Shown: positions 9,321 through 61,900 of the stretch, piece after piece
Layout of the letters: every line of letters begins with the position of its first letter
How positions within the stretch are numbered: position 1 is the stretch's first letter
Assembly (NCBI GenBank): GCA_039621445.1
Contig: CP154954.1
Span: forward strand, 46,355,847-46,419,846
Source: Euglena gracilis
Taxonomy: Eukaryota
Reading direction: 5' to 3'
DNA length: 64,000 nucleotides
Notes under the pieces: generated by a model
What the model was told of the DNA's origin: nothing
Databases searched by the model: none
What the model saw: the letters and a program-made list of their open reading frames with translations, nothing else
Program-made: the position numbers and the translations under genes

Positions 9321-9368
9321 AGAGTATTACGGAGTTTGTGGTTCAAGATGGGTGTGGTTAATGGATGT

Positions 9369-11405: not shown

Positions 11406-11426
11406 TCCTGGATTTTGTTCAATGTC
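11403..11426 (-). other. 2A-like StopGo peptide #2 (LLLLSGDIEQNPGP)
   Basis: Exact D[VI]ExNPGP consensus preceded by a hydrophobic LLLLSG. Confidence 0.9.
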
Positions 11427-11900: not shown

Positions 11901-11921
11901 GCCAGGATTCGTTTCAATGTC
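11898..11921 (-). other. 2A-like StopGo peptide #1 (LLLCGDIETNPGP)
   Basis: Exact D[VI]ExNPGP consensus preceded by a hydrophobic FFLLLCG. Confidence 0.9.
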
Positions 11922-12110
11922 TCCACAAAGCAAAAGGAAAAAGAAATTTGGAAACGTAAGAATGTTTGTAAAAAGGGGTTTCAGAAAAAAAATGTTCGGA
12001 ATAAATGATTTCCAAAAGAATGTTTTGCTTTTAAGGGTTAAAAGAATAGTGTACCAAAAGAAAAAACGGCATTCCATCAAAAAAAACCTCAAAGTTTCCA
12101 AACTGCTGAA

Positions 12111-12350
12111 AAGTTTTTTGACTGCTGTTGTCAAAAACAAACGTGAAATTTTTTTAACTTTCAAAAGGAGAAATAACAAAAAACACAAAAACAGGGGTGC
12201 TCCAGACAGCAAATGTTGTGTAGAAGGGGGGTAAGTTTTTTGACTGCTGTTGTCAAAACAAACGTGAAATTTTTTAACTTTCAAAGGAGAAATAACAAAA
12301 AACCAAAAAACAGGGGTGCTCCGACAGCAAATGTTGTGTAGAAGGGGGGT
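12111..12350. repeat. Tandem duplication (122 bp + 118 bp) that frameshifts the first ORF
   Basis: 12111-12232 and 12233-12350 are near-identical. The second copy has small deletions. Confidence 0.9.
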
Positions 12351-13740: not shown

Positions 13741-13839
13741 CTTGAAAAACCAAAGGTGATCCAAGTTATCTTTCAGACTTGATAGAGGTGCAAGTTCCTG
13801 TTGGTCGGTATTCTGCAGCCCCGACCGGCTCAGACTTCA

Positions 13840-17753: not shown

Positions 17754-18023
17754 CAGGCTTCTTTTTAAGTCCCTGGCCCCCCTGGGGGGGGGGGGGGGGG
17801 GGGGGGGTCCGGGCCGGACCCCCCGGGGGGGGGGTTCCCGCGCCGGAGGCGCTGGGTATACCTTTTCGGTGCGAAGCACCGAAAATTTTTGAAAATTGCC
17901 TTTAACGGCCCGATTTTGGGGGGGGGTCCCCGCCCCCCCCCCCCCCCCCCGGGGGCCCCGCGCCCCCCGCGGTGGGGGTGGGGCCCCCCCCTCCCCCCCC
18001 CCGGGGGCTTAAAAAGAAGCCTG
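17754..18023. mobile_element. CAG...CTG MITE (hAT-like)
   Basis: 16-bp TIR CAGGCTTCTTTTTAAG / CTTAAAAAGAAGCCTG; TSD imperfect. Confidence 0.7.
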
Positions 18024-28900: not shown

Positions 28901-31900
28901 TGCTTAGTCTCTTTGAAACCACCTCCAGCCTCACGTAGAAATCAGAGAGGCACCCCTTTTATCATTGACAAAAAACCCAGGACTTAAAGGTTTGGCTTCA
29001 GGAGACACACTCCCAACCAACAATTACCTTGGACCAAAAAAAATGCGTGACAAATCTGTTTTCAGACTTTTTTTTGGAACCAAATTGTTGGCAAGTTCAA
29101 TTTAGGATCTAAAAATAGCTCGCAGAACAAGTACGGAGTCACAATTGCCCCAATTGTGTCATATTATCTTTCAAAATTTGCCACCATTTCCCATTTTTCA
29201 TTTTCCATACCCACACATCCCATTGAGAAAGAAAATGGTTGTTTTTTTTCACCAGTTGATTCAAGGCATACCAAAAACAGTTGGTTATCCCTGATGCGTG
29301 GTCCCTGAGCACAGTGCATGCTCGCTGTGGCTAGCTTCAACTGAGGTTGTTCCAATTGATCGATCTTTGTAATCAGCTGACGAGTCGGCAAAATACCCAC
29401 TCTGATGTATTAACAGGTCAAGTTCGCCAACTTTCAAGCCCCCTCCCCCCCAGAAAAGAATCCTATTCAGATAAAAATGCTCTCCGGTTGAATGCGAACC
29501 TCATCGGCTGTCACCTGCACTGCTCTGCAGTTTGTCTGCAGTGCAGTCCTTTGCAGTTCATGTCGCAAAATTTTCTTGTGATGCATTTTTCTCAGTCCTC
29601 CAAAAGAACACACAGTTCAAAAATTCACATTTGCACAAATGGTAAATTTGAAATGAAATTGGCAATTGAGCTCCTTAAATCCTTTTCCCTTGAAAAGTTT
29701 TCGGAAGTCTTCAGCCTTTGACCAATTTTCAGCTGGCCAATTTTTTCCCCAAAGAGTCTGGTCTGCATTACTCAAACAAGGAGTCAGGCATCAGCGCTTT
29801 GTGGGCGCCAAGTTGTCTGATACCAATGGGAAGTTTGGTGTTGGAGTGCAATGTTAAGGAAAGTGGAAATCGATGCTTGCAATTTTTCAATCACTGTTGA
29901 TTATCAAAGCTTCTGAGCAAAGGATTGAGGGGTGGAACATTGCACGGCCTGCTGCTGTTTGAATTGCTGCTGATCACAGATGTGCAACACTTTGATGCAG
30001 CTCCTTCTTTTCTACCAATGATGCACCACCCCGGTGCTGTTTCTTTTTGTTCTTTGTCTCCTGAACCTCACCGCTCCCTGGGCCGTATGATTGCAGGCGG
30101 CAGCGCCTTCTGCCCCTGCCCTGGAAGAGAGTGTGAGGTGCAGTGGACCACGTTGTCCAAAAGGGGGGCATTGTGGTTCTGTGAGGCTGCTGTTGCATTG
30201 TGTACCGTGCACAGATGTTCTCTCCTGGAGAAGAAATTGTCCAGCTACGAGGCCTGCCAGATGACACAAATGATTCAAATATCAAGACCCAAATTCAGGT
30301 TACTTGCAGATTTCGTGCTTTTGGGGGTCTGTCTTCCTCTAACACATTGGCCGCGCCATTTTGTGCTGCCAACTTCGGGGGGGGGGTATAGAGAGAGAGA
30401 GAGGGAGATTTTGAGATGATCATTCATCCCAATGTAAATAGCTCCTATCTTTTTTGCACACCTTCATACAATCAACTTTCGAGTTGCACACCTTCATGCA
30501 ATCAACACCCCAGACATAACTTTGAAACAGGGGCTTTTTTCAGTCTTGGACCGGGGGGGGGGGGGTAGGGTGGGTGGGTCTGGCCAAGCCCCCCCAGGGG
30601 GGCGGGTACCCCCAAAAAGGGGTGGGATATACTTTTTGGCACCTGTGGCGCCGAAAATTTTTGAAAAGGTGCTATTTTTAGCATTTTTCGTGTTTTTTTG
30701 GACTTTTTTGGGGGAAAGTGGGTTGGGTCCCCCAGGACTCCCCACCCCCGGGGGTGTGGGGGGACCCCCCCGGTCTTGAAAAAAACCCTGCATTGAAATT
30801 GCCGTCATTTTCAGCTTTTTCAGGCCTTTCAAAGGTATGGGGCAGGGTTTTTTTTAAGTTGAGGCCAGGGTGCGGATTCAGAAAATTTGACCCCTCCCAG
30901 GGGGTCAAATAAACCCTCCCCCTGGATGGAAGCCCCCCCCCCCCAATAGAAGCCTCGGTTTTCGACCAACGTTCCGAATAATGCCCCCCCCCCCCCGAAA
31001 AGTCTGCCCCGTGGTTGGCTTCTTCAGCCATTGGTTAAATGAGGCTCTGAGCTGGACCTGGGGGGGAGTCCCTGGTTGAGGCCGACAGAGGCAGGCACTC
31101 CGAGGCACCAGATCCTGCCCCCCCCCCCCCCGAAGGAGGGCACATGGCCAAAAGTGCCAGGGCACTCAGCCAGGACACTGCCTCAAAGGCGCTAGACGCC
31201 CAGGAAACCACATTTTTGGGCAGTTTTTTTTGCCCAGAACCAGGCAGACCCCCCCCCCCGGGGTGCCTGCCTGCCTGCCAAAAACTGCCACCAGAAAAAC
31301 TGGAGGAGGTGGTGGGGGGTGGTCGACCCCCCCACCCACCACCCACCACCCTAGCTGTTTGGCCGATTCCCGTTCTGCCCTGGTGGGTGGTCCCAGCCCC
31401 CCCCCCCCCCGGGGTCCTTGGCCACAGGCCTAGGTCACTGGGAATGAAAAGGCTCAAATTCAACAGATCTCGACCACTGTGAAAAAAAAAATCCTTGGGG
31501 TCACTCCCACCCTTCCCAAAACCATTCCGCCACTTTTCCTTTGGAACATCAGTGTGACTAGCAACCCCTGGGGGCTTCTTTCAGGAAGGAAGAATCAACC
31601 AGAATTTTCTTGTGCCTTCAGCGCCAGTTCACTTTGGCGTTTCTTTGACGACCCACCTGGGGGGGGGGGGGGTGAAAAGGGGTCTGAAACCGGGGGTCGG
31701 CCAGTGACTGAATGATAATATGCCCTGGGTTATGAACCTTGAATGTGTTTTTGCTCTGGATTCATGCACAGAAAAATTTAAACCATTTGTGGGAAATGTT
31801 CATTTTTTTTATTAAAAAGAACGTTTCAAATGTTGCACAAAACAGTTGCAAACTTTGGGACCAGATTAAAATGAAAAGGAAATGCAAAGAAAATGCTCCA

Positions 31901-34900
31901 TGCCTTACATTGCGCCATCATGTCAACAACGTAACAATGTTTGTTTATTGGCCCTCCGCAGGATGCACCCCCCCCCCCCGCGCTGGTCACAGGCAATTGC
32001 TTAAGCACTGACCGACCCCCCCCCCCCCGGGGGGTCGGTGACTGGTTTTTTTCAGAGTGACTGACTGGTTTTTGGCCCGGACCCCCTCCCCCCCTCGGGG
32101 GGGGGAGGTCAGCCAGGAGTGGGAAAAAAGGACTGGGGAGAGACCGGCGCAGACAGCGCCGGAAAATTGTTTGGGGCCTAAAATGGCCTAAAGTGACTGG
32201 AAAGTGGCCGTTTTTCTGAGTGGCCGACCCCCCCAGTCACTACCCCCCCACCCCCGGGGGGGTGTAGTGACTGGCTGGTTTTTTGAAAATGAGTGACTGA
32301 CTGGTTTTTAAAAAAAGCGGAGTGACCAACCCCCCCCCCCCGGTGGTCGGTGAGCAATTGTATGGCTGGTCAAATCCCGCCTTGCATGGGGGCGGTCCAG
32401 CCAGTCAGCACCATTTTCCCAGCCACTGGCTCCTTTCCAGCCTTGGTGGCTTCCATTTAGGGAGGGGGCCCAGTGGGCCGGGGCTTCTGATTGGGGTTCA
32501 ACAAGGGTTCAACGGGTTACAATGGCATCGGCGTTTGCATCAAAAAAAAATACGTTTGTCAAAGAATGCTGTTACAACTCTGTTGATCACAACGTGCAGG
32601 CTGTTTATGGGCCTGTGGATTGGGTCATCACGTTGGCGCGCAACGGAGGGCGGATTGGATTCCTGACGTTCAAGGATGCAGAGACCGCAAGACAACTGAT
32701 AGCAGCAGGAAGGTTGGAGGTTGCTGGCACAACTGTCACAGCAAGCCGCGCGGTTCCAGCTGATTTGCAAGGAGTGCCAGAGGAAGCTGAAGGTCTGCAA
32801 ACCGATTCCTCCAGTGCAAGTGTTTGCCAACCTCACCCTCGTTATAACCCCCCCCCATTTTTAACCCAGTTTTGAATAGTGCTGCGCTCTTTGCGATGAG
32901 ACCCCCCACGCCCCCCCCCACCACCCCCGCCCCTCCCCCCTCTGAGGGGGGCGAGGGCGCCAATTTATTTTGCCATATATGCCCCCTCTACCCCCCCCCA
33001 CACCCTCCCACTTCCCTTTTTTTAAGGACACTGCTTACTTTGATGTTTTTCGTTTAAAAAATGGTTGGGCCGGGCGGGGGGGGGGGTGTTGGGGTAAAAC
33101 GGAAGAAAAATTTCTCCTCATCTTTGCATTTTTGGAATCGCTGTAAAATTTCTTTTGTATGTTGGGGTCATTTGTGTCGTCAAATAAACAAAAAAAAAAT
33201 TCATTTCAACGAAAACCAAAAGCATTTTGATTTTTACCTGGGGGGGTCTGGGGGTTTATAAGTGGGGGGTTTGGAGATATGGATTCATTTGGCAAAGCCT
33301 GGGAGGTTTTGATGTTTTCTTGAAGCAACCCCCCCCCCCCGGGTTCTGTGCTGCTGAAAAGAAAGCCTGTTTTGGGGTCGATTTTTTTATGGAGGGAATG
33401 TTTCCTTTTTGCGTGTAATGTGCACAGCTGCATATGTGAGGTGCTGGATAAAATATTACAAGATTTGGCAGCATCCACAGCAGGGGTGTTAATTATTTGT
33501 ACACCCCCAAATTTTGTGGGTGGTACCCAACCCCCAGCCCCAAAGCCTCTGCAGCCCATGGGATATCACACCCTGCCCCACGCAGCAATGCCCCAGCCAG
33601 CTCTGCTGCCTTGCACTGACGAGTTTCACGAGAGCCAAATTTTTATGATTTCTGCCCCTCTCGTTCACCCCTCCAACCCCAGCTTAGGCGAGGGGGGCGA
33701 GGTGGTCCATATGGGGTGGGTAGCTTTGGACCCCACCTTTGAACAACACATGATGGCAACCCTGTCAACGCAGGTTGAGAGTGCAGTGACTCTCCCAAGG
33801 TGGCCATTTTGGGCAATTTCAGCCCAAAATGGTTACCTTGGCAGACTCTCAGCCTGTTTTGACAGGGTTGCCATCATGTGTTGTTCAAAGGTGGGGTCAA
33901 GGATTCTGCGCCTTGACTCGATGTTGGACCAAGGCACAAACAGCACTTTCAGCAATCCATGATATTGACTGACAGTGGACCGGGTGTGGGTTTCGGCGCC
34001 ACCGAAATTTTTTTGGGAAATCCCCCCCGGTGGGCCGAGTTTTTGGGGTCCCCCCGGGGGGGGGGGGTCCCGGTCCGGGGCTGGGGGGGTGGGGGGACCC
34101 AACTCAGTGCCCTGATGTTCTTGCCTTTGTGAAGAATTCTAAGTGTTTTCATCATTGCCACGTCAAAGATTTTGTAATCTGGTCAATTATCTCAATTTTT
34201 TTCCACAGGTGATCAGAAGAGTGTCTGGCTTGCGAAGTTGGAGAAGGTTGCATCTTTCCTGCTTCATCAGAGCTATCCTCATAATTCATGTTTATGGATG
34301 CATGAATGTATGGAAATATAGCATGTTACAACTGGCGCCCTCCATATTCTTAGTTGGTTGACAAACCCTCGCAAAGAAATCTCAGAGTTCATTTTGACTT
34401 TTCTCCATTTTTGACATTTTGACATTTTGACAAAAATTGTGACAGAAATTCCAGAACGTTTTGACAGAGTTTTTTCCCCCAAATCCCAAAAATCCCAAAA
34501 CGCATTTGCGCCAACCGACCTGGTGTGCATTTGTACAAAGGGATGCAATCAAGTGTCATGGCGCACAAACAGGCCTCGCTCCTGAGCCTTTCTAAACAAC
34601 AATAAGCGGAAGGGCTTACAACGCAGTCTCTCTCTGAAAACATACAGATGCATTGAAAGAACACTGGTATCAGACACCAGGTCGGAATAAGTAAAGGTCA
34701 GTTTGCGAAGTTGCGCATGTGGCATGACACATTTGTGCACACCAACCACGTGTGTAAAGATGCACGCCGTCGAAGTACGAAATTGGCACACCATTATGAC
34801 GTGTGCATTTGCGTCCACAATAACAAAATTTCAGACAGAACACATCAAACATGACCCCAAACCCCACCTTCAATGGCTCCTTGGGAAGTACAATTTCATC

Positions 34901-37900
34901 TACCACACGTCCATGTGGAGATTGTAGATTGTAGGCCTTTAATAGGTGCCCCACCACAGACACATCGCGGCACATGTGCAACGGCGGTAATGGGTGGACC
35001 TCGAAAACCCCCGCCGCTTGCCCCCCTGGCTTGAGTTTTGCTGCAACAGTCACATCAGGTGACGACGGGTGATTATGCTTCAGCAACCACCAAGGGGTGC
35101 TATGTTATCCCCCACAACCAGGACGGCAGACTGGGGGGGGGATGCTGTGAGTAATAGCAGCATCAGAAGTGTGGCCACAAATCTCACTGTTTTAGAGGCA
35201 GAGAATATTTAATTATTATATATGGTGGGGTTGCGTGAAAGCACTGGGACTTAACACCCAGATATTGTGCAACGCACTGGTGCGTTGCTTGTTTTCCGAG
35301 GAAACAATGAGACCGTGATAAAACAGAATAACGATTCCCGGCCGCAGGAAGATTAAACATGCAGAAATTTTAAATCCCAGAAGTCGTCATTTTTGAAGAA
35401 AAATGCCCAACAATCACGGGGGTTACACGTCATCAATTCCTCCCGGCAATTTCCAAACCAATGATGCGAAAACGATCGATCGTGCGGGTTGGAGATGCAC
35501 ACAGAGCAGAGACAAATTTTCTTTTGTCATAGGGTGTGTTCTCCTGCACATTTCGCATCACATGAAACTGGAATTTTTTTCACCACACAATAGTTTCAAA
35601 CGTTTTGCACCACAATGATCAGTGTGCGCAAGTGTGCACGCCAACTGTTATCGCGCAGGTATGGTCCAAATAGAAGTGCACCCCGTCGACGGAGGCGGCG
35701 GTCCGCTATAAGCGCACCTGTGCTTCTATTCGGGGGTTACATATTTTGTGTTAGCGGTTGGTGTGTGTTTTTTTCTCTGATTTAGCTGCACATCACATTG
35801 TCCAAATGGTGGAAAGTTGGTCTCCATCAAACAAATGTGTGGCACCCGGCAGTTACAGGCAGCAGGGACGTTCCAAAGCTCATAGTCGTAACAGCCAGGG
35901 TGCACAGCCCACCTGTTTGACAGACAAGAACACGAATCTGTCGCTCAGATACATCAGAAAGCTCGTTAGGATGATAAACTGGAACCTTCGTGTTTCCTAA
36001 TGTGTTTCATGAGGTGTGCATCCTACATGTTTCTGTTTCACCAAGTGCTATTTTTGCATATTTTTTGTTTGTTCTGCACATCTTTTGAGGTTGTTTATTT
36101 CAAGGAGTTTCCAGCCGCATGTTTGCCCTTTCTCACAAGTTCTTCCTGTCCCTTCTCGCGATCAAATCCCAGTACTCTATAAAAGGTGGCATTTCCCCCC
36201 CCCCGGGGGAGGTCGGATTTTGGGGTAGCAGTGCTATAGCACACTCCCTGGCACCGAAGATGCTGAGGCCTAAAAAATGGCCATTATCAAGGGAATTGCT
36301 TGGGCATCCCCCCCTCCCGGACCGGGGGGGGGGGGGGGGGTTCGGACCAGGGATTTTTTTTAAGTTTGGACGCCCGGGGGGGGGGGGGTAGGGTAGGGTG
36401 TGTGGGTCCGCCGGACCTCCTCCCCCCCCGTGGGGGGGTCCCCCCCGGAGTGATATACTTTTCGGGATATACTTTGGGGATATACTTTTCGGCGCCGCAG
36501 GCGCCGAAAAAATTCTATTTTTAGCACTTTTCGCGATTTTTCGGCCATTTTTTGTGGGTCCCCCGTACACCCTTCCCACCCCCCGGGGGGCCCCCCCCAG
36601 GGGGGTGGGTGGGTGGGGGGGACCCCCCCCTCCCCCCCGGTCTTAAAAAAAACCCTTGGTCGGACCCCCTTCACCTGACAAGGGGGTCCAGACCACCCCT
36701 GGGGGGTTCCCGGGACATTTTTTTTTCCCTTCTGGCACTTTGCACCGAAATTTTTTTGACAAATTTTGCCCAAAAGTGCCCATAATGGCATTTTTGGCTG
36801 TTTTGGGTTGTCAAAGTTTTCGGTCCAGCGCTTTGCACCCGGCTGAAAGTCAGTCACCTGGACCGCGTCACTGTTCAAGCGGGGGCCGTGTCCCTCCCCC
36901 TCTTTTAGTCAACCCGGGGGGGGGGGGTGCTTTGTGCGTCTTTTGGTCAATTTTTGGTTCTGGTTCAATTCCCAAGGTTTGCGATTGAGATGATACAAGG
37001 GAAATGATGAAGGACGTGAACAGGGTGTTTTGAATAGCTTTTTTTTTCTCTCCCACCATCATTCCATTCCTGTGCAGCTTGCTGATGATTTGATGGCGCT
37101 GTCACCAGAGGAGTTACGGATGAGGGCTATTCGTGAGTTTGGCCACCATTTTAGCCCAGATGTCTCAATTCCAGAAATGGTTCAGTGGTTCTGCATGAGA
37201 GACGGAACGTCTAGAATGGGTGTGCAGAAATCTTTGCCGTGTGTGATGTTCCCCGGTTCTTAAAACCTCAATCTCAACCTCAATCAAGAGATCATTTTTT
37301 TGGATTTTTATTTTGAATTGTTATCTCCCTCCCTCCCTCCCCAACCCCGACACCAGGGGCGTGGTTGCCGGATTGCCAACCGGTTGCCTGACTGCGCCCA
37401 GTTGATTCCTGAAAACTGGAAAAAGCCCAAATCCAACTGGGTTAAAAATTATCACCCAGAATTTCGAGGAAAAGCCCAAAGATAAAAACTCAAATGCCGT
37501 TTTTGGCCAATCCGAACCCTTTATCGGTCCAGCCCAGGTTCGCCAGGCTGGAAAAAAACCTCCAGGCTGGAGGTTCACAAGCCTCCAGCCTGGCTGGCGA
37601 ACCTCCAGCCAGGTAATTGTTGGCTGGAGAAGAAGGTTGTGGTTAGCTGAACTCCCCCACCAGAGGGTCGGGTCACCTTTGGCTTCAGAAATCGCTTGTC
37701 TCTGCAACAAACAATTAAGATTTTAAAGAAATCGACAAACATCAGGCAGGTGGGCTCCAACCCCTGCCACAGGAGGCAGTGCTTTAAACAATGATGGGGT
37801 TACCTCTGGCTGATCAGTTAACAGATTCATGTGATTATTTTTTGCCTCTCCCGCCAGAATAAAGTATCACTCATCTGCATGACCTTCTCGGAAATTTCAG

Positions 37901-40900
37901 AAAATGAATATGAAATTTAAATATGAATGTTTTTGCTCTTTTTGTGCCAAAAAAAAAATGGCTTTTTTTTTTTGTTTAACATTCTACATGTCTTTGGTGA
38001 GCATGGGAAGCAGGGAATTTCTTAAGCCGGAGGGTACCCTACCCCCCGGGGGGGGCCCAGCCAGCCAGCAGCTCAAATCCAGCCAGCAGCCCAAATTCGG
38101 GCTGGGAGCCCCCCCCCGGGGTCGAGTGAAATAAAGTCGGGTCCAGCCCGGCCGGAGGCCGGGCCAGCCGGCCGAAGGCCGGCCCAGCGGGCCGCAGGCC
38201 GGCCGGCCAACTGGGCTGTCCAGCTCACTTATCCCTGCATTTTTCCCCCTCATCACAGCCCCTCCATCACAGCCCCCCAGCCTTGATCTAGCTCCACCCA
38301 TCAAAATGTCGAAAATGGCCAAAATGTGTTAGAAAATTTTGTTTTTCCTCGACCCAGCCCAGCCCAGCCCGCTCCAGCCCCCGACCCCCCCCCCCCCCCC
38401 CCCCCGGGGGGGGGTCCAGCCAGCAGCTCAAATCCAGCCAGCAGCCTTTTTGCCAGCCGGAGGCTGGACCCCCCCGGGGGGTCCTTAAGAAATTCCCTGA
38501 TGGGAAGGTAACGTTCCTTTCAGAGGTGGACCCAGGGGAGGGCAGGGGGTTGACACCCACTGATCCACTTCCGACACAGCCCTGATGTGTATGTATGTGT
38601 ATGTATTGTGTGTATGTATGTGTATATTCCCAGATGTGTATGTATGTGTGTATTCAAAATGTCTCTGTTTTTGTCACAAATCTAAAATCTGTCTTTTACA
38701 CGACTGGCCTCGAATTTCCATGGATCTCTGCCCCAAAGCCCGAAGCAGGCTTGTGCTTAGTCGGGTGCCTAACCCACAGGGGGGGGGGGTGGGTGCTAGG
38801 GGCAGGCACCCCATAGCACCCGATCTGACTCCCCCCCCCGGGGGGGGCAGGCACCTATGGCCGACCAGGGCCGACCAGGGCCGACTTGCATGTGGTTGGC
38901 CGACGGAAGGGGAATGGATGAAGGAATTCAGCAGCTTTCCCTCTGGACCAAGCACCTCTGATGATGCTGGGCGATGCTGGGCGATGCAGGGCGATGCTGG
39001 CCCGGCAGCATCGACCGCGGGTTACCGCAGCCGACCGCAGCCGAACGCACCCAAACGCACCCGACCGCGCAACTTTTTTCTAATTGATGTCAATTTTTCA
39101 GTGAGAATGAGGAATCAGGCTCATTTTTATCCCAGATTTTGAGATTTTTCGGCTCATCTGGCTCATGTTGTCACTTTTGGCTGCTTTTGGTCGCTTTTGG
39201 CCATTTTTTAGGTCGCTTTTGTCCCCTGTTGGCCTCTGGATTTGCAAAAACAGTGGCCAAAACAGCTTTTCTTTGGCCTTTGCCCACTTTTGGCCATTTT
39301 TAACCATTTTCAGCCGACCGCAGTCACTGATTTGGCAAATATTGGGCTAATTTGGGTCAATATGAGCATATTTTATGGCATTTTGGCCATTTTGTGCTCT
39401 TTTGGTAATTTTGGATCATTTTTCACAATCTTTTTTTCTGTGACGGATACCCCCACCTATGGCCGACTATTTGCCGACTATTTGCCGACCAGGGCCGACC
39501 AGGGCCGACCAGGGCCGACCAGGGCCGACCAGAGCACCAAAATGGGAAGTGACCATAGGTGCCTGCCGGGGGGGGGGCAGGGTTTTGGGGGGTGCCTGCC
39601 CCTAGCAGGCACCCCCCTCCAACCCCGGCGCCAAAGGCGCCAGGGGCCGGAAACGGCTATTTTCAATGAAAATTTTCTGGGTCCGGCCCGGACCTATCCC
39701 CCCCCCCTATAGGGTGCCTGCTAGGGGCAGGCACCCTATAGCACCCACCCCCCCCCGGTTGGTAAGCACAAGCATGGCCCGAAGTTGAAAAGAACCATCG
39801 TTTACTCCCTCCCAGAAATTTCTGTTTTCGGCACGTTTTGGTAATTTCTGATTCACGAATACAAATACGAATCCTGTTGCATTCAGTATTGGGGCAGACG
39901 CCTGGTTGCATTTGCGGTGGTTTGGAGCAGAAGAATCTGTCAGTCATTGTTTACTCTTTTGCGGGACCTTTTGTTCAGGTGCCCCCCAGCACCACAGCCC
40001 CAACGATACCACGCTCCCCCCCTCCTCTGCCAAGCCATTTGCTCTCCCAAGGGACGCCCACTTTTTCCCCTCCATTCGCCACCCCCACCCCCTTCCCACC
40101 CCCTGTCAGGCCTGCCCCCATCCCCAGGCCCGCCGGCGAACTGTGCTCATTGCCCCCCTTTTTTCCCAGTGCGCGGGTTCAGAATGTCGTTGGGCACAGG
40201 CCACTCCCCGTCCCCCTCCCCCCTCACCGACCTTCGGATTTCGGCTCTTTTCAGCCACACGCCCCACTCCCAGTCCCGCAGGCCTCCTATGCCCCTCCTG
40301 TGGCTCCTCCCCAACCTGGATACTCTGCAGGTTTGTTTGTATCATGCAATGCTGTGAGGGAAGGGGAGGGGTTGCGCCTGTTGTCCCAGGGGTTCACTGG
40401 ATCTATGATTTAAATGGCCGCCCCATGCCACTGCCGGGGGTTGCCATGTTGTTGGAAAAGCGCCAGTGGACCCCAATGCTTATGAAGATGGAGATATTGT
40501 GAAGATTAATAACGATTATCATGAAGATGGGACCGACCCCCAAATCCCAAGGGACCATCATATGGCTGTTCTGACATTGGGTTATGTGCCAAGTTGTGTT
40601 TGACGTTAGCTGTAGTGAGTCTGGAGCAGTGACCATGTGTCTCTTGAAGGTTTTGCAGACCCCTGGCTGCAGCAGCTGCGAGTCAGCCCCAATTTCAGCC
40701 CAACCCAGCCGCTTACCTCCCTCCAAGTTGCTGCCAAAAAATTTCGGCACAAAGCGCCAAAAATTAGAGAAAGTGGTCGAAAATGGTGAAGGGGAAATGG
40801 TGTTTTTGAGAGTTTGAAGAGGAAACTGTGCCTTGCGGGTAATTTTTTTGGAGTTATCCAATTTCAGCCCAGCCCCACTCAGATACACCTGGGGTCTCCC

Positions 40901-49900: not shown

Positions 49901-52900
49901 CGAGCTGCAGCGCCGCGTGGCGGACGCCGAAATGCGGCGGAGTGGCGTGCGGCGGCTGACCGAAGACCGCCGACCCGCCCCCAAGGCCGCCAACCCTCCT
50001 CCGCGCGAAGAAGAGGTGTGGCGGCATGGGCCGGCCAGGCATGTTGCCCACCGCACATCCATGCCATGTGAACATTGGGGTTGGGGGAAGGGCAAAGCCC
50101 ACTGTTTCATGTCCTCTGTATTTGAGAGGGGCTAACAGCCCAAGTAGATTACCAGTCTTCGTTCTGAAAGGGGTGGAAAGTGTTTTGATTTTATCTCAAT
50201 GGTGAGGTTAGCAATGTGGATTGGCGTGGATTGGGATGGATTAGTTTGGATTGGGTTTGCATCGGTGATGGGCATCTTTTTTGAATTTATCATTTTCATT
50301 TTTTATCATATTCATATTTATCATTATTTATCATTTTTCATTTTTTTTTTATCATATTCATAATTATCATTATTATTGTTTGTTTTTATTACAGTTTTTT
50401 GTAGCTTTTGCATTTTTTTTTGTTTTTTGTTGTATGAACTGTATGAATTGCATTCGCTTTCTCCCAGACTGTGGACCGCATCATGGCTGCGCCTGTGGAA
50501 GAAGTGCAGCCACCTCTACCCCCAGTGCCTCCTTGCCAGGCTTTTCCTCCTGTTCTCTTTGGTGTCAAATTCCATGCCGAAACACAGCAATGTGTTCACC
50601 CCCCCCCCCCCAGAGCTGACCCTGAGCCCCTTGGGTGGTGTATGAAGGGGGTTGTCCATTGAATATCCATTAGTGGGTGGGGTGGGTTGGGCTCCCCCCG
50701 CGCCAGGTTTTCTTTTTTCTTTTTCAGAACTTTCAACGGGGATCCTTCAGATGCCTTCAGTACCGAAGGAATTTGTCCTTGCGAGCTGGCATACCCACCG
50801 TGTGGCCCTGCCCCCCTGCTGCCCACCAGTTGGAGGGCAGGCACAACACTTAGGGTATCCCGGTCCGCTGGCTGACACACGGCAGGGCACCCCCCCCCTT
50901 TCTTTTCCAGGAATTCCTGGCTGGGTGGGCCCCACGGCCGCAACCAAACCGCAGTGCCCAGTTTTCTGCACGTTCGGGTTCTCCCACGCCGAATTCGCAT
51001 CAAAGTCCCCCCCCCCCTGATGGTGTCGGAGTGCTGTTTCACAAACAAAAGCCTGCCCTCGGCCCGCCCCCACTGCCCGCCACCGCCCCGCCCAGCAGCG
51101 GCGGCATGCAGATCCGGCTGAAGACCGAGGACTTGACGCAGCTGCACACCGAAGAACGCGCAGCGGCGGTGGAGGTGGAGATGCGCGTCATCCCCAGCGT
51201 TGAAGGTGCTGGCCCATGAGTTCCACTCCGCACTCCCTCTGTCTGGTTTGAGCAATCTTTGTCCAACAATCCAGTTCAAGGCAAATCCTCCAATTTGACA
51301 CAGTTTCGATCAAAATTTGCTTTTTCTGATTTTTGTGAACACTCATCCAAAATGTTGGGAAAAAATTACCGCCCCTGCCAAGAGCTGGCTCCCCTCTTCT
51401 GTTGGAGTCAGGGGGTTTTTTTTTTAGTCTTGGACCCTGGGGGGGTAGGGGGGTGGGTCTGGCCGAGCCCCCCCGGGGGGGGGTCCCCCCAGGGGGTGGG
51501 ATATACTTTTCGGCGCCAAAGGCACCGAAAATTTTGAAAAAGGTGCCTTTTTTTTAGCATTTTTGTTATTTTTTGGCCTTTTCAGGGAAAAGTGGGTTGG
51601 GCCCCCCATCCCCCCCCCCCGGCCAGGGGGTGGCGGGGTGGGTGGGGGACCCCCCCTCCCCCCAGTCTTAAAAAAAAAACCCCTGGGTGGAGTGATCATG
51701 GTTGACAAAAGCAAACAGGGCATTTAGCCATTGTGCATGTATTATGTGCCCATCACATCCCTCTGTTACGGCTTACACCGAAAGGTGGCTGTCGTTTTCC
51801 CTGGGGACAAAGACAGACTACGTGGCGATGCACACGCGGCCCCTTCTCTCTCAGTGGGCAATCCCCGGCCCGTTGCCTGGCCATTCGCGGAGGGGGCTGG
51901 GGCCAGTGCCCCCCAGCCAGCCCCGCCCCCGCCGCCCCCGCCCCCGCCTGCCGCCCCGGCGCTGTTCAGCGGGCCACCCCCGGACACCCCAGACCAGCAG
52001 CAGTGCCACCTTCAGGTGCCAGAGCTCTCCAAATTCCCTTTGCACTGTTCAGGGAATCAACGTAATGGAAATTATCACTTGCGTTGGGAGGGGTTGGTGA
52101 GTCGCCCAGCCAGTTGGTCTGACGGGTGGGGGTTTCTGGTGATAAAACCACTCATATGTGTACAACTCATATGTGCATGTGGATGTCGTTGTTCAACAGC
52201 AAAACAAACAAAACTATTTAATTGGCTTACAAAGCCTTCCAAAACAAGCTCAAATGGTGCCAAAGCCTTCAAAAAAACTCCAAATGAAGAGAAAAATAGG
52301 TAAAGCTTGTAGATGGCGTCGGGGCAGAGGTTTTTTTGTTTTTGGGGGTCGGGATCCACCTACCCACCCCTGGGGGGAGGTCTCGGGGGGGGGGGGGCTT
52401 GGGGGACCACTTTTGGGGTCAATTTCGGGGTCCAAAGGTTCTTCGGTGTACGGTGCCCACTTTGCCCAACCCCCGACCCGGGGTTGCAGGGTATTCAGAC
52501 TGATCTGCATGGTGTGCGCAGTTACAACTCTGCACCCAAAATCTGAATTTCGAAATTGAAATCTTCCCAAATTTGCTTTTTCTGAAGTATTATTTTCCTG
52601 TCATTTTTACGTTCCACGATCTTTGTTCAGGCTTTAAAAGATGAACGCCTGTGCAAGCTTTTCCATTGATTTGTTTGTTTGCCCCTGATCTATCAGTCGA
52701 ATATTTGACAACAATGGTAATAAATTTTGCCTTTTGCACAAGGGGTGTTGCAAAAAATTCTTGTTTTCATTTGCGGGATTTCATTTTTCAGACCAGCCTG
52801 ATGAAAAACATGAAAGTCACATTGGATCCAGGCTTTTGCTTAAGGACCCCCGGGTACTGGCTAGCCAATCGGCTAGACACTGGAAAAAATGGACTAGCTA

Positions 52901-55900
52901 GACCCCCCTCCCCCCCGGGGGGGGGTCCGGGGGTCCCCCCAACTGGAATTTTTTTCCTCCAGTTTTTTTCCTTTTTTTTCCTCCAGCGCTGCGCGCCGAG
53001 GTGGAAATGAGGTTTTTAATAGGTTTTTGGCTGATTTTGTTCCAAAAATTCCCAAAAAAAGTTTCTGGTGCTTCGCGCCGGTCACTGGAAAAAATTTTCC
53101 ACTAGCTAGCCCTGCTAGCAGACCCCCCCGGGGGGGGGGTCTGCTAGAAATCCCACTAGCCAGATTTGGACTAGCTGCAGTCCAGCCCCCCCCCCCCCCC
53201 GGGGGCACTGCAATCCCTTAAGCAAAAGCCTGATTGGATCGTTGTGAGTTTGGTGAGTAAATTGCTCGAAAATGTGCTCATGTTTGTGGCAATGGTGACC
53301 AATCATCAGTTGTTGTTTGCCATAATTACTTGATTGAGAGCGTCCTATTGCGTGTCTTTTTTGTCCCTTTTCACACATTCCAGCCTGGAAGGGATGTTAA
53401 ACCTGTTGGCTCAGGGCTGGCTGACGCGGCTTTACCAGTCAAATCGGCGTGCCATTTTGGTTCCATCGTATGCCTTTTGTGACTCAGGATCAGATCCTGC
53501 AGCTGCAGCAGTTTGCTGTTTCGTTCAAGTGCCATCGCCGTCAATCCCCCCAATGTCGAACAATTTATATTTATATGTTTATATCTCCACAGAAAATATT
53601 CCACACTAGGTGGGCTAACATTTGGCAAGACAATGCGCGTCAAGTTCAGCATCCTGACATCTGAGACCCAAGCCCACTACAATCGCTCAGTCACTTAACC
53701 CCCCCTGAATAGAAGCCCCTGGGGGCAACTATTCGGAACGTTGGTTGAAAACCGAGGGGGGGCTTCTATTCGGGGGGGGGGGGGGGCACTATTCAGAAAA
53801 GTGGTCGAAAACCAGTGGGTTCGAGAATTATCGAAGAAATTTCTTCGTGGGTCTACATGCCCTACCTTCTAAACCATGTCAAATCTGCTGCAAATGTTAC
53901 TCTTGTGAATGCATGATCATTAAACGTAAAATCATCCAACCCTCATTTAGAGGTATTGCAAAAACTGGAGCCCTGCACTAGACATTTACCCCCACCCCGC
54001 ACACCCCCACCCCCCCACACCCCCCCCCACACCCCCCCACACTTGACCCGTGTAGGCTCCAGTTTTTGCAATATATGCTCATTTTACCAAATGCTGAAGA
54101 AGCCAAAGCCAAAGCATTTGCCGTCTCAATTCACAGACAACCCACGGGGAGCGGTCTACTATTCGGGGGGGGGGGGGCACTATTCGGAACGTTGGTTGAA
54201 AACTGAGGGAGGGGGACTATTCGGGGGGAGGGGGCGTCTATTCAGGGGGGGTAGTCACTGGCAGACCCCCAGGGTTTGTGACTGTTTCTTTCAGAATGAT
54301 TGAGTGGTTGTTGGCCCAGACCTCCTCCCCCCTTGGGGGTGGTCTGCAAAAAAATGAAATACCCAGTGCTGAAGGCGACAAAAAACCCTTTTTTGCCATT
54401 TGTTTTTTTGTTTTTTTACGTTTGTGGTCAATTCCCCCTTGGGATTCAGAGTGGCCAACCCCCCCCCCACCAGGTAGTGGGTGGTGACTGACTGGTTTTT
54501 GGAAGTGTGGAACTGACCCTAGGGCGGTAAAAATTGCATGGAACCCGTGACAAAATGCTGGTGGTCAACCGTTTGATCGCCCCAGCCAACCGTCCAGCCA
54601 AACCCACCGTTGGCCCCCGAACGTTCCGCTCACCCCTGCGCGGTGGCGTTTGCCCCCGTTCCATGTCGGCGCGGAGGAGAAGTCACTGGAGGAGCTGGCG
54701 AAGGGGGCGGAGGACCTCCAGCGGCTTCAGCAGCTCGAGCAGCTCCAGCAGGAGGAGTCCTCGGCGAGGACCGCCCAGGGCGTGCCTGCCGCGGAGGCCC
54801 CGACCCACCGAGCAGCGCAGGGCGGGCCCGCTGGCTGTGTGACGGCCCGCGAGGGGTTGATCCAGCCGCAGCGATTTGGTCCTCTCAAATAACATTTTGC
54901 TGTCCACATTTTTGTTTTAATTTGATCTATTTAATTTGATTCAATTTAATTGATCGGGTCGCAGCATTGGCATCGGCATTAGTATTAACGTACAGCATTG
55001 CTGCGTGTTTCTGGTTTTTTGCCTCCTTGTTTTTGTTTTGGCCCGAGGCAATGCGTTTGCCCCCATCGCGCGGAAGGGTCCGTGCCACGGTTCCCGGCGA
55101 TGTGCCGGCCTCCCTCCATTCCTTGGCGTCCGGCGCCGCCCTGCGGTGGTCCCAGTGTGCCTTGCACTTCCGCTTCCGCTGCGGCCCCTTCCTGCAGCAA
55201 GGTGCCGATGGGCAGTGGCGCTGCCTCCCCCGCTTCGCCTGCCAGTACTCCTCCCCGCTGGTGTGCAGGGGCCCCCTTCCCGCTGAGCTGTTGGAGCCCC
55301 ACTCCTGTGATGACGTCCCAAACATCCCACGCACATCCCTTTCCCAAATGGCGACCACATCCATTCCCCAATAGAAAGCATTTTTAGATCGTTTGAAGCA
55401 GGACGAGAAGTTGATGCCCTTGCGGTGCCCTTTCACAGCTAGTTGTTGTTGTTTTTTTTAAAGGGGACAGTTACAAAAGAAAATGGCAGCTGACCACCCC
55501 TGTGGGCCAGGATCTGAAGTCAAGCTGTTTGGGGACGAGTTCAACAAGCCGGCCGCCACCCCCTTGTGTGATGTATGCCAACCCATCCATCCTCGGGCTA
55601 TACCACCCCGTCACAGATACCAGCGGTGGCCGCCCCCAGCGTGGAGGTTCCCCGCAGCATGCCTCCCGCGGAGCCTCAGCCTGCCCAACGCGGGCGCAGT
55701 GCCTCTGTGCAGTCCCTCTTTTGGCCGTTTGCAACCGAAATCTGCCGCGTCAGGCGGAAAGGCTTGCGGCAGTCTTTACGCCGCAACTGAAAAGCTGAGT
55801 GCCTCGGTTGGCTGGCTTTGGCATGGCATGGTGATGAATGGGAGGGGCTGGGCCCAGCTCCAGTAGCTCCAGCAGCAGCTCCAGCAGCCGACACAGCGAC

Positions 55901-58900: not shown

Positions 58901-61900
58901 CTTGTTCTTGATTTTGTGACTTCTTTTTTCCAAAAAAAAATGCAAGGTTTTCAAGGTTTTTAAGGCTTTTAAGCGCCTTAAGAAATTATTAGGCCTGCTT
59001 GCCCCCCCCCCCCCCCGCGCACCATCCACAAAATGGTGCGAAATGATGAATTAAGGAAATACCGTCTCCACTTTTCTGCCCTTCCCCCCCTTTTTTCAAG
59101 CCACAATTTGTGTGGGTGCACAGCTTTAAATATCAGCAAACAGCATTTTGCAGGCAGTCCAGGCCCCATTGCTGCCACAGAGGCAGCCGCAGCGCCAGCC
59201 GCAGCAACAGCCGCCGCAAGGGCCCCAAGCAGGGATTTTTTTTTTAAAAGTTTGGGAGGAGGGGTCCATTGGACCCCCCCCCCCCAGGGGGGGGTGGGAT
59301 GTCACGGGAGGTAGGTTCGTGGGAGGTAGGTGCCGCGGCCGGCCGGCCGTCAACCAACCAAAACAGGGGTTTGGTTGGGCCGCGGCCGACCGCGACCCAA
59401 CCATGGCCATATTTTGCTGTCAGAATTCTGATTTGGTTGGGCCCCAATCAAATTGCAAAAGGTTATCACAAAACAAAAAGATTTTATGACGTTATTTGAA
59501 GAAATAGGGTTAGGGTTAAGCTTCTCATGCAAACAGTTCAAACCTTCCCACTCAACTTCGGTATATTGGCCTCTACAGGGTACTCAGCGAACCCAAAGAG
59601 CCACCCAATTAGGGTTAAAAACATGGGGGGACCTGAGCGGTGCGGAAGGCGCCGAGCGAGGGTCCCCCCATGTGTATTAACCCTAGTTGGGCGGCCTTCT
59701 GGGTTCGCTTAGTACCCTGTAGGAGCCAATTTAACCGCCATTGTGCGATGCAGTTCGCTGGGTCTGTTGTGGTTGGGTGGCCGCGGTCCAACCAAACCGA
59801 ATTTCATGATTTCAGCATCGGAAATGGTTGGCCCGCAGCCCAACCAAGATTTTTTTGGGTTGGGCCGCGGCCGGCTGCGGTCCAACCAAAGCAGCAAAAT
59901 GGTTGAGCGGCGCGACCCTACCTCCTACGAACCTACCTCCCCTTCCCCACCACCCCCCAGGGGAGTTCCTCCAAAGGGCTTGGTGGGTTTTGGCCACTTT
60001 TTGGCCTTTTTTGGCGCGAAGCGAATTTTTTTTGACCCCAGAATTGGCCCCCCAAAAGTGAGTCCCCGGACCCCTCCCCCCAGGGGGGGGGTAGGGGTAC
60101 CTTCTGGGTTGGTATGGGGGACCTCCCCCCGGTCTTAAAACAGTCCCTGGCCCCCAAGGCCGAGGGGGCCAGGGAGAAGCGGTCCAGCAGCCCCAGCCAG
60201 GCGAGCCGCAGCCCGAAGAAGGCTCGCAGGTGTGCTTTTTTTTTCTGGATAACTGCTTGCTTTTGAGATTTTGTTAAGTTGGCATAGGTTCATGGTGCTG
60301 GCAAATACCTTCTGCGATGCATTGGAGTAAGACAGGCATCTATTGTGGTTTTGCTGTCATGAACCATCACTGGTTCTGCGGTATACTATTTTTTTGTTGG
60401 GACCCATTTTCATCTGCAGTCCAAGGAAGAAATTACTGCAAATGATTCTGGGTGAAAATATCATGGGAACAATATTTTGGGAGTATTTTGATTGTGAATT
60501 TTTTTGGGTAAAATGAATTTTTCATCCTGTGCCAAATCTTTTTCAGACCACATTGCAGCCAGAAAACCCTTTTCCCCAAAGTGTGGTGAGCAAACTGCTC
60601 AAAAATGAGTCACTCGCAAATATCATACACCGATGATGGCTGCTTTTGATGACTGGCCTGGTATGGCATTTGAGGATTTCATTCGCCTTGGCTCAAGGAG
60701 GTGTTGAAAGGTGCAGAGGGAAGAAAGGCGGCGCCCTGCCGGGGGGGGGGGTTCTTTGGCAGGCACTCCAGGGCCGGGCGGGGGGGGGGTAGGGCCTGTT
60801 GCCAAAAGTGCCTGGGCACTCGGGCAAGGCACTTCTGGCCAGAAACGCCCATTTTTGGGCACTTTTTGGCACATGACCAGCAGGGGGGGATGGTGCCTGC
60901 CTGCCCAGGCATTCCAGGGCACTTGGTCAAATTCAGCCTGGTGAGGGTGTTCCCTGGATTTAGGATTGTGGTCGAAGTGAGGCTTTTTTCCTTGGACTTG
61001 AAATTGGGTGGGGGTCAAATATTATGGGAGGAAGTCACATCGAAAACTTTGATTTTCACACCCAAATCTATTTTTCTGGCGCTTGTTTTTTGTGCAAGTT
61101 GGAAATTGGAAAGTTGTTTGTTAGGGGAGAGGGGAGCCGACATACCTCCCCTCTCCCCCTCTTTGGCACCCTGCCTGCCCCAGGGCGGACTCCCAGGAGC
61201 GGGAGGCAGCCAAGCGGAAAGCCGCCCCGGGGCCCCACAAGGACCCGGTGCCCCGGAAGCTGTCCACCGCGACCCGCCGCGAGGCGCCGGCCCACCCGCC
61301 GCCCGGCTGGGAGCCCCCGCCGCCCCCTGTGGGGCCCCCACCGGGGCGGCCCCCCACCAAGGCCGCAGCCCAGCGGGGAAGGGAGAGGCAGGGCGACGGA
61401 AAGGAGCGGTCCCACCCCGCCCGTGCATCTCCTTGCCGTGTGGGGGAAACTTGCACCCCCCGCAGATTGGCCAAAGGAGGCCGGATGAGAGCGGTGGCGG
61501 CGGAAAATTTTTCGACCATTGTTTTGCGTGTTTTCCCCTCAAAATAGTCTTTTTGGAGGATTCCTTTTTTTCCTCGATTTCTTCTTGTTTGGGGAAAAGA
61601 CCACATGAAGAGCTTTTGCGTTCTCTTGTGTTCCCTCTTAATGCAGAGTTTTGGATCCAGGCTTCTTTTAAGGAAGGTTACCCCCCCCCTTGGGTGGTGT
61701 GTGCAGGCAGGGGGGGGGTATTTTTTTTAATAATCCCAGGGGTGTACCTTGTATGCAGGGGTGCCTGACCATAGCAGGCACCGCTGGTCCAGACTGGGGT
61801 TGACCCAGGTAAAGTCGTTTTCGGGCTTACCCACTGCCCACCCCAAACCTGACCCTTCGGGGGATCAAAGTGCCTGCTTGGACCTGAAATATCCACCTAA

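What the first reader, a model, noticed from the sequence alone, without database searches (positions are those of the whole stretch)
30520..60158. CAG...CTG MITEs with 8-bp TSDs reproduce the geometry of euglenid non-conventional introns
Seen: eight insertions from several families begin CAG and end CTG (one CTTG), with left TSDs CTTTGAAA, GTTCGGAC, ATGGGAAG, ATATGGTC, CGGATGAC, GTTGGAGT, ATTGGATC and GCCCCAAG. Position 6 is a purine in all eight. Inference: an intron starting 3 nt before CAG and ending 5 nt after CTG removes 3+5=8 nt, exactly one TSD, so such an insertion in either orientation is excised seamlessly. TSD base 6 becomes the first base of both the intron and the downstream exon. 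The intronic copies may be spliced as nested twintrons. A MITE origin for these introns has been proposed in general terms; the sample here is small.
Basis: partly seen in the sequence, partly recalled or inferred. Interest (0 to 1): 0.7.

Follow-up and report, generated by a model that had tools for sequence, protein, structure and literature searches.

The report
Intron-shaped mini-transposons in Euglena DNA
This stretch of Euglena-type DNA holds at least eleven small cut-and-paste transposon relics, and the ends and 8-base duplications of most of them match the published cutting rule for this group's unusual introns, though none could be shown to be spliced here.

Summary
Four have exact 8-bp target-site duplications (TSDs), three have one mismatch and one has a 1-nt indel. 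Exact 8-mer repeats next to inverted ends number 13, against 0.09 per shuffle.

I found three more 8-bp-TSD elements. Two end ...ATG rather than CTG, and one has a pyrimidine at TSD position 6. That makes 8 of 11 CAG...CTG and 10 of 11 purine (uncorrected p 0.004).

They look like hAT-type MITEs: 8-bp TSD, CAGG termini, T at TSD position 2 in 7 of 11 and A at position 7 in 6 of 11. No transposase was found.

The 3+5=8 arithmetic matches the published splicing code (PMC12501133). A published, recently gained E. agilis intron has an 8-nt direct repeat directly abutting CAT...ATG inverted ends (PMC4770533).

Nothing here shows splicing. No gene was recognised, so the twintron idea is untested. 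TSD position 5 is G in 9 of 11, against the published pyrimidine preference.

MITE origin, TSD-like repeats and the code are in print. I did not find the explicit 8-bp/hAT link. This scan noted the same idea several times on other windows of this genome.

The parts
30520..30798 (.). M1: 263-bp MITE (30528-30790), family A, CAGGGG...CCCTG. TSD CTTTGAAA / CATTGAAA (7/8).
   Evidence: 81% identical to M6 over 219 bp.
31982..32372 (.). M9: 375-bp element (31990-32364), left end CAGGCAATTGCT, right end ...AGCAATTGTATG (CAG...ATG). Exact TSD GCTGGTCA, with T at position 6.
36340..36665 (.). M2: about 310-bp MITE (36348-36657), family A, CAGGGA...CCCTT (CTG mutated). TSD GTTCGGAC / GGTCGGAC (7/8). 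It sits inside another repeat.
   Evidence: 84.5% identical to M4 over 278 bp.
38003..38507 (.). M3: 489-bp MITE (38011-38499), 16-nt perfect TIR CAGGGAATTTCTTAAG. Exact TSD ATGGGAAG.
38738..39784 (.). M10: 1031-bp element (38746-39776), TIR CAGGCTTGTGCTTA / CATGCTTGTGCTTA (CAG...ATG). Exact TSD GCCCGAAG.
41985..42282 (.). M4: 282-bp MITE (41993-42274), family A. Exact TSD ATATGGTC.
   Evidence: The RNA minimum-free-energy fold does not use the end-to-end stem.
47967..48105 (.). M5: 123-bp MITE (47975-48097), 18-nt perfect TIR CAGGGTTTGATATAAGGA. Exact TSD CGGATGAC.
   Evidence: The RNA fold pairs CAG with CTG, -95 kcal/mol, z -5.8.
49617..49832 (.). M5b: 200-bp candidate MITE (49625-49824), CAGGCC...GCCTG. 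Exact but low-complexity TSD CTTGGGGG; TIR 9/14.
51401..51693 (.). M6: 277-bp MITE (51409-51685), family A. TSD GTTGGAGT / GGTGGAGT (7/8).
52821..53240 (.). M7: 404-bp MITE (52829-53232), 17-nt perfect TIR CAGGCTTTTGCTTAAGG. Exact TSD ATTGGATC.
59222..60158 (.). M8: 920-bp element (59230-60149), CAGGGA...TCCCTG, with long internal palindromes. TSD GCCCCAAG / GCCCCCAAG (1-nt indel).
17754..18023 (.). Decayed 270-bp copy, related to family A internally. TIR CAGGCTTCTTTTTAAG. Flanks GGGCAGGT / GGCAGGGG, out of register.
21023..21300 (.). Decayed 278-bp family-A copy, CAGGGGG(T)n...(A)nCCCCCTG, with no recognisable TSD.

Best explanation
Window 30.5-60.2 kb is repeat-rich euglenid nuclear DNA. It carries at least eleven insertions of non-autonomous cut-and-paste DNA transposons (MITEs, 123-1031 bp), each flanked by an 8-bp target-site duplication.

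What is shown:
- Their termini start CAGG and their inverted ends are 10-18 nt long.
- There is one multi-copy family (A: M1, M2, M4, M6 plus two decayed copies) and several single copies.
- Eight of the eleven have the CAG...CTG end pair.

What is inferred, step 1: they were moved by a hAT-type transposase encoded elsewhere. The grounds are the 8-bp TSD, the CAG ends and a target resembling nTnnnnAn.

What is inferred, step 2: elements of this class are the source of euglenid nonconventional introns.
- The published excision rule cuts 3 nt before CAG and 5 nt after CTG. That removes the element plus 3+5 = 8 nt, exactly one TSD, so an exonic insertion would be erased from the mRNA.
- Because both junctions are copies of one TSD, the model predicts the same base preferences at the 5' and 3' junctions, which is what the literature reports.

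No copy in this window has been shown to be transcribed or spliced. They may all be plain intergenic or nested insertions.
For: 1. Structure.
- TSD/TIR catalogue.
- Register control: 6 exact TSDs at shift 0, against 0-2 at 12 other shifts.
- Shuffles: 13 observed, mean 0.09.
- Families: M1~M6 81%, M2~M4 84.5%.

2. hAT-like target.
- T at TSD position 2 in 7/11 (p 0.009) and A at position 7 in 6/11 (p 0.02), uncorrected.
- Hermes, a hAT element, makes 8-bp TSDs of consensus nTnnnnAn (PMC2803484, passages).

3. Code match.
- PMC12501133 shows by knock-in mutagenesis that CAG/CTG, the 3-nt and 5-nt spacers and a purine at the 3' exon start are needed, and that synthetic introns built on these rules splice.
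- In the plus orientation 7 of 11 elements meet all of these. An eighth, M8, does so only with a 6-nt spacer, because of its indel.
- The M5 RNA folds with CAG paired to CTG, z -5.8.

4. Independent published data (PMC4770533).
- The text reports 'eight nucleotide direct repeats' at a strain-specific new intron.
- In Table S3 the repeat is 8/8 and abuts CAT...ATG inverted ends. That is the same CAT end as at one end of M9 and M10 here.
- Junction consensus over 55 introns: purine at intron +1 (51) and exon +1 (55), pyrimidine at exon -1 (49) and intron -1 (49), A at exon +2 (43), C at exon +3 (30). The symmetry of the two junctions, and the A (with C) following the purine, are what a hAT-type TSD would leave. 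This last link is my inference.

5. Purine at TSD position 6 in 10/11 (p 0.004, uncorrected).
Against:
- No gene, exon or transposase recognised. 0 of 92 ORFs of at least 110 aa in 28.6-64 kb hit Pfam. Seven of the 18 ORFs lie in 28.6-64 kb and none of those hit. Two exon-like ORFs found nothing.
- CAG ends with an 8-bp TSD are generic for hAT elements in many eukaryotes (recalled), so the match could be partly coincidental.
- TSD position 5 is G in 9/11 (p 1.6e-4, uncorrected). Published introns have a pyrimidine at the corresponding exon -1 and intron -1 positions in 49/55.
- Three of 11 elements (M2, M9, M10) lack the CTG or CAG partner, which the mutagenesis says would block splicing.
- In the minus orientation only 5 of the 8 CAG..CTG elements give a purine.
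- For family-A copy M4 the minimum-free-energy fold does not form the end-to-end stem.
- Older published introns keep little TSD identity. My hand count gives about 157 of 432 positions over 54 non-independent rows. This is inflated by the shared junction consensus, and no control was run.
- n = 11 from one window.
Confidence: 0.7

Rival explanations
1. These are ordinary hAT-type MITEs in non-genic, repeat-rich DNA. Their likeness to the nonconventional-intron code is coincidental, because CAG...CTG ends and 8-bp TSDs are generic for the superfamily. Euglenid introns arose some other way.
For: - No gene or transcript evidence in the window (lay not possible).
- TSD position 5 is G in 9/11, against the published pyrimidine preference.
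- 3 of 11 elements lack the CAG/CTG pair.
- Generic hAT ends are recalled knowledge, not a tool result.
Against: - Three independent numbers would have to coincide: 3+5 = 8, the CAG/CTG pair, and the purine at position 6.
- The published new intron has an 8-nt repeat abutting inverted ends.
- Both intron junctions share the same published base preferences.
Confidence: 0.15
2. The direct repeats at nonconventional intron junctions are scars of double-strand-break repair, as proposed in PMC4770533, not transposon TSDs. The MITEs here are unrelated to intron gain.
For: The authors' own reading of the eight-nucleotide repeat (abstract and gapC section).
Against: - In the published table the repeat directly abuts an inverted repeat, CAT...ATG. 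That is the TIR/TSD layout of all eleven elements here.
- Repair scars have no reason to be 8 nt long or to flank inverted ends.
Confidence: 0.05
3. The elements are mobilised by a non-hAT superfamily that also makes 8-bp TSDs. One candidate is Merlin, reported in E. gracilis with 8-bp TSDs. P, Zisupton or Novosib-type elements (recalled) are others.
For: - Merlin families with 8-bp TSDs exist in E. gracilis (PMC8101967, passages).
- No hAT transposase was found here.
- Two GG-ended candidates with 8-bp flanking repeats lie at 18365-18449 and 45989-46442.
Against: - Merlin TIRs carry a conserved terminal 5'-GG. Here the TSD abuts CAG directly in all eleven.
- The aligned E. gracilis Merlin ends printed do not end in CTG.
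- The T2/A7 target bias fits hAT.
Confidence: 0.1

Closest known systems
Euglenid nonconventional introns (Milanowski et al. 2014 PMC3935182 and 2016 PMC4770533; splicing code in PMC12501133)
   Same: - CAG at +4..+6 paired with CTG at -8..-6, a stem extending inward, a purine at the next exon's first base, and variable length.
- Direct repeats at the junctions.
- One published new intron with an 8-nt repeat.
   Different: - The copies here are not shown to lie in a gene or to be removed from RNA.
- TSD position 5 is mostly G, where introns prefer a pyrimidine.
- Three copies lack the CAG/CTG pair.
hAT-superfamily MITEs (Ds-like elements; Hermes/hobo/Ac as autonomous models)
   Same: - 8-bp TSD, short TIRs beginning CAG, a target leaning to nTnnnnAn (PMC2803484), and no coding capacity.
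- One end may differ from the other at a terminal base, as in M9 and M10.
   Different: - No autonomous partner or hAT transposase was identified.
- The bodies carry long G and C runs.
- The ends coincide with a host RNA-excision code.
Introner elements: MITE-derived spliceosomal introns of Micromonas, dinoflagellates and others (reviewed in PMC11282704)
   Same: Non-autonomous DNA transposons whose TIR/TSD supply the signals for their own removal from mRNA.
   Different: - Introners use spliceosomal GT/AG-type signals and mostly 3-5-nt TSDs.
- Here the proposed excision is by the helix-measured, non-GT-AG euglenid pathway, and it would remove one full 8-bp TSD.
Merlin transposons of E. gracilis (PMC8101967)
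   Same: 8-bp TSD, present in the same species.
   Different: Merlin ends are 5'-GG. These elements end CAG/CTG directly against the TSD.

Membership tests
hAT-superfamily non-autonomous elements | 8-bp target-site duplication directly abutting the termini | tested here: met
   Of 11 elements, 7 are exact (M3, M4, M5, M5b, M7, M9, M10), 3 are 7/8 (M1, M2, M6) and 1 has a 1-nt indel (M8). Shuffles give a mean of 0.09 against 13 observed.
hAT-superfamily non-autonomous elements | Short terminal inverted repeats beginning CAG/TAG (the 'YARNG' motif, recalled from memory) | tested here: met
   All 11 left ends are CAGG. CAGGG occurs in M1, M2, M3, M5, M6 and M8; CAGGC in M5b, M7, M9 and M10; CAGGT in M4. 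TIRs give 10-15 pairs of 15. The motif itself comes from no call.
hAT-superfamily non-autonomous elements | Target consensus nTnnnnAn | tested here: inconclusive
   T at position 2 in 7/11 (p 0.009) and A at position 7 in 6/11 (p 0.02), uncorrected. The consensus is taken from PMC2803484. The sample is small.
hAT-superfamily non-autonomous elements | Autonomous partner encoding a hAT transposase with matching ends | tested here: inconclusive
   No hAT domain among the 110 window ORFs scanned against Pfam (18, 92). No whole genome is held, so absence from the window says little.
Euglenid nonconventional introns | CAG at +4..+6 and CTG at -8..-6, with 3-nt and 5-nt spacers | tested here: met
   Met by construction for 8 of 11 (M1, M3, M4, M5, M5b, M6, M7, M8). 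Not met by M2 (CTT) or by M9 and M10 (ATG).
Euglenid nonconventional introns | Purine at the first base of the downstream exon | tested here: inconclusive
   Among the 8 CAG..CTG elements: 7 in the plus orientation (M8 fails with a 5-nt spacer) and 5 in the minus orientation. The direction of transcription is unknown.
Euglenid nonconventional introns | Stable RNA stem bringing the two junctions together | tested here: inconclusive
   Contiguous stems from CAG of 16-18 bp in M3, M5 and M7 and 4-8 bp in the other five. The minimum-free-energy fold shows the stem for M5 but not for M4. Two of 11 were folded.
Euglenid nonconventional introns | Lies within a transcribed gene and is absent from the mature RNA | not tested
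No gene was recognised.
Merlin superfamily | TIRs with a conserved terminal 5'-GG | tested here: not met
   The TSDs abut CAG...CTG/ATG in all 11. The feature is taken from PMC8101967.

The most novel reading that the evidence does not exclude
The euglenid nonconventional splicing pathway is, in origin and present function, an RNA-level undo for hAT-type transposon insertion. It recognises the helix formed by the transposon's CAG/CTG inverted ends and cuts 3 nt outside it on the 5' side and 5 nt outside it on the 3' side. Element plus one 8-bp TSD are removed, and the pre-insertion message is restored whatever the target sequence. This would explain three things:
- why both junctions share one consensus (Y|R, then A and C, which are TSD positions 5-8);
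- why most Euglena introns are 'slidable';
- why these genomes tolerate very large numbers of such introns.

A bolder form of the idea is that the recognising factor descends from the transposon's own end-binding protein.
Probability: 0.35. Interest if true: 0.85.

Novelty: new member of a known kind. Interest (0 to 1): 0.5.

Why it matters
Where euglenid nonconventional introns come from, and why their junctions look as they do, has been open since they were described. They are most of the introns in Euglena: 71.8% in E. agilis (PMC12501133).

A MITE origin was proposed in 2014, when no euglenid transposon was known. Free-standing MITE families with the right ends and an 8-bp TSD turn that proposal into countable predictions:
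- the length and register of the junction repeats;
- a TSD logo that equals the junction logo;
- families shared between introns and free-standing copies;
- a hAT transposase with CAGG ends.

The published genome-wide analysis set aside the 'slidable' introns. Those are exactly the ones that would carry intact TSDs, so the test has not been done in print as far as my searches show. This window contributes clean examples and some counter-examples, but no splicing evidence.

Tried and rejected
No RNA or DNA lay exists for this window.
- Whole genome. None is held, so a genome-wide TSD logo and a transposase search were impossible.
- Gene finding.
  - 0 of 92 ORFs in 28.6-64 kb hit Pfam.
  - Codon-position GC ranking gave no convincing exon.
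  - Two coiled-coil-looking ORFs were searched: 49788-50132 found nothing among longer proteins, and 54551-54889 found 0 hits among 1.84 billion representatives.
  - Removing each element plus one TSD did not join convincing long frames.
- More copies elsewhere. A family-A end pattern scanned over metagenome contigs gave 16 loci. All are chance matches, with no left end and no G/C-run context.
- Earlier notes by sequence, for M4 and M3: nothing.
- A fuzzy consensus search for TIRs and a regex under-detected ends. BLAST and alignment scans replaced them.
- Residual TSD identity in older published introns. I counted only by hand from the table, with no shifted-register control.
- Merlin as the mobilising family: rejected on the termini.

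Full report
**What the window is.** It is 64 kb with no N, and no whole genome is held for it. Earlier notes of this scan call the genome Euglena gracilis. I did not test that name myself. The sequence does have the G-run/C-run-rich, repeat-laden look those notes describe. A gypsy-type retroelement with DNA-methyltransferase domains lies at 1-14 kb.

**The observation.**
- The right ends were read. Four TSDs are exact (ATGGGAAG, ATATGGTC, CGGATGAC, ATTGGATC).
- Two differ at one base (M1, M6).
- M2 ends CCCTT|G, so its CTG is damaged. Its TSD is 7/8 if the element is taken to end at 36657.
- M8's right copy has one extra C.
- Position 6 is a purine in all eight.

**More than chance.**
- With the right flank in register, 12 CAG..CTG pairs have a TSD with at most one mismatch and a TIR of at least 9/14, and six of them are exact. 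With the flank shifted by -4 to +8 nt the counts are 0-7, with 0-2 exact.
- A scan blind to the terminal letters looked for exact 8-mer direct repeats bracketing at least 10/12 inverted ends. It finds 13 cases, against a mean of 0.09 (maximum 1) in 100 block shuffles. Cases with CA at both ends number 6, against 0.01.

The blind scan and the TIR-first scan add three elements:
- M9 (31990-32364), exact TSD GCTGGTCA.
- M10 (38746-39776), exact TSD GCCCGAAG.
- M5b (49625-49824), TSD CTTGGGGG, with a weaker TIR.

M9 and M10 start CAG but end ...ATG. M9 has T at TSD position 6. The honest tallies are therefore 8 of 11 with CAG...CTG and 10 of 11 with a purine at position 6 (binomial p 0.004, uncorrected for having picked the position). 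Two decayed copies without a readable TSD lie at 17754-18023 and 21023-21300.

**Families.** BLAST of the elements against the window shows one family. M1~M6 are 81% identical over 219 bp and M2~M4 are 84.5% over 278 bp. The two pairs are related to each other and to the two decayed copies. M3, M5, M5b, M7, M8, M9 and M10 are single in this window. 'Several families' is correct.

**What kind of transposon.**
- An 8-bp TSD abutting CAG-initiated short TIRs points to the hAT superfamily.
- The TSD columns lean to T at position 2 (7/11) and A at position 7 (6/11). That is the Hermes consensus nTnnnnAn (PMC2803484, passages).
- Merlin is published for E. gracilis with 8-bp TSDs, but it has 5'-GG ends (PMC8101967). 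It does not fit the termini here.
- No transposase was found. None of the 110 ORFs scanned against Pfam has a hAT domain. The superfamily call therefore rests on end structure only.

**The interpretation: geometry.**
- PMC12501133 showed by knock-in mutagenesis that nonconventional splicing needs the CAG and CTG triplets, 3 nt before CAG, 5 nt (6 tolerated) after CTG, and prefers a purine at the first base of the next exon. Fully synthetic introns built on these rules splice. I read the passages and section 5.
- Applied to TSD-CAG...CTG-TSD, the intron runs from TSD base 6 of the left copy to base 5 of the right copy. The mRNA keeps exactly one TSD.
- The full code is another matter. In the plus orientation 7 of 11 elements pass every item, and M8 passes only with a 6-nt spacer. 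M2, M9 and M10 fail on the triplet.
- In the minus orientation only 5 of the 8 CAG..CTG elements give a purine.
- The M5 RNA folds with CAG paired to CTG (z -5.8). For M4 the internal G and C runs win, and the minimum-free-energy fold lacks the end stem.

**Independent published data.**
- PMC4770533 reports in its text that the one nonconventional intron present in a single E. agilis strain has 'eight nucleotide direct repeats'. The authors read this as a mark of double-strand-break repair.
- In their Table S3 the repeat is 8 of 8 and sits directly against CAT...ATG inverted ends. That is the layout of the elements here, including the CAT end of M9 and M10. Because the junction is slidable, the 5+3 register is the authors' placement. 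The independent facts are the length 8 and the abutment.
- For the nine older intron positions my hand count gives about 157 identities in 432 compared positions over 54 rows. Those rows are orthologues and so are not independent. Chance is about a quarter, the shared junction consensus inflates the figure, and no control was run. Old TSDs have mostly decayed, if they were ever there.
- The same paper's junction statistics are symmetrical. A pyrimidine stands before both cuts (49/55 each) and a purine after both (51/55 and 55/55), followed by A (43/55) and C (30/55) in the downstream exon. Two copies of one TSD would give that symmetry. A hAT-type target would give the A, with C. This is my inference, not a published statement.

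**Against.**
- TSD position 5 is G in 9 of 11 (p 1.6e-4, uncorrected), where introns prefer a pyrimidine. I cannot explain this strand-asymmetric bias.
- CAG ends and 8-bp TSDs are common to hAT elements in general (recalled), so part of the match is generic.
- There is no evidence that any copy here is transcribed. The RNA lay failed. No gene was recognised. 'Intronic copies' and 'twintrons' remain conjecture.

**What is in print.**
- MITE origin: PMC3935182 (abstract and origin section).
- 'TIR (usually CAG and CTG)' and 'TSD' wording for these introns: the review PMC11282704 (passages).
- The code, with 'MITE-like' as a suggestion: PMC12501133 (discussion passage).
- The same suggestion for diplonemids: PMC12621601.
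- Seven literature searches were aimed at the explicit link. I found no paper stating that 3+5 equals a hAT-type 8-bp TSD, or describing free-standing CAG..CTG MITE families in Euglena. Subscription journals and closed bioRxiv supplements were not searchable.
- The PNAS analysis excluded 'slidable' introns: 84.4% in E. agilis, and 340,675 of 413,446 in E. gracilis by its SI. That is where intact TSDs would be.

**Earlier notes of this scan.** The same idea was noted repeatedly on other windows of this genome. Some follow-ups report spliced MITE insertions. I could not check them, and I treat them as leads only.

**Verdict.** These are real, cleanly delimited hAT-like MITEs. Most of their ends match the published nonconventional-intron code, and the 8-bp TSD gives a concrete reason for the 3+5 rule. 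This window adds examples, three counter-examples and one unexplained bias. It adds no splicing evidence.

Noticed in passing
window 1-13836, minus strand: Two neighbouring retroelement copies have long open frames carrying reverse transcriptase, an aspartyl-protease-like stretch, a C5-cytosine methylase and a Dam-like N6-adenine methylase (1249-3027; Dam again at 10449-12479).
   Followed up: partly
window 22013-22554: A 542-bp element with a 32-nt, 94% TIR starting TACAGTCCCTAGCCG, flanked by TA on both sides. It looks like a Tc1/mariner-type MITE. It also begins CAG and ends CTG, but with a 2-bp TSD, so it would not be excised seamlessly under the 3+5 rule.
   Followed up: partly
window 45989-46442: A 454-bp element with 12/12 inverted ends GGCAGGCGGGTA, flanked by ATATATAT on both sides. 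The GG termini and 8-bp repeat would suit Merlin. However, the flank is itself palindromic and sits in a TA-rich microsatellite, so the ends are ambiguous.
   Followed up: no
window 18365-18449: An 85-bp unit with 10/12 inverted ends (GGTACTCGTTCG / GGAACTTGTTCG), flanked by an exact 8-bp repeat CAAAAAAC. It may be a tiny GG-ended MITE or chance.
   Followed up: no
TSD position 5 of the eleven elements (30524, 31986, 36344, 38007, 38742, 41989, 47971, 49621, 51405, 52825, 59226): G on the plus strand in 9 of 11 (p 1.6e-4, uncorrected), not mirrored by C at position 4 (3 of 11). This strand-asymmetric target bias is unexplained and runs against the published pyrimidine preference at the matching intron junction position.
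   Followed up: partly
window 26771-26845 and 25310-26735: A perfect 37-nt palindrome with a 1-nt spacer, and repeated GGGTAGTCGGCCGACTA palindromic units up to 1.4 kb apart. These may be the ends of another element type.
   Followed up: no
window 49850-50000 and 54650-54800, plus strand: Two short open frames read like coiled-coil protein (runs of L, Q, E, R). They might be exons of an unrecognised plus-strand gene that would place M6 and M7 in an intron. Neither found any relative.
   Followed up: partly
bodies of family-A MITEs, e.g. 36372-36640, 42018-42255: Every family-A copy carries long G runs near the left end and C runs near the right end, around a conserved core (..GATATACTTTTCGGCGCCGCAGGCGCCGAAAAAA..). 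In the RNA fold of M4 these runs outcompete the terminal stem.
   Followed up: partly
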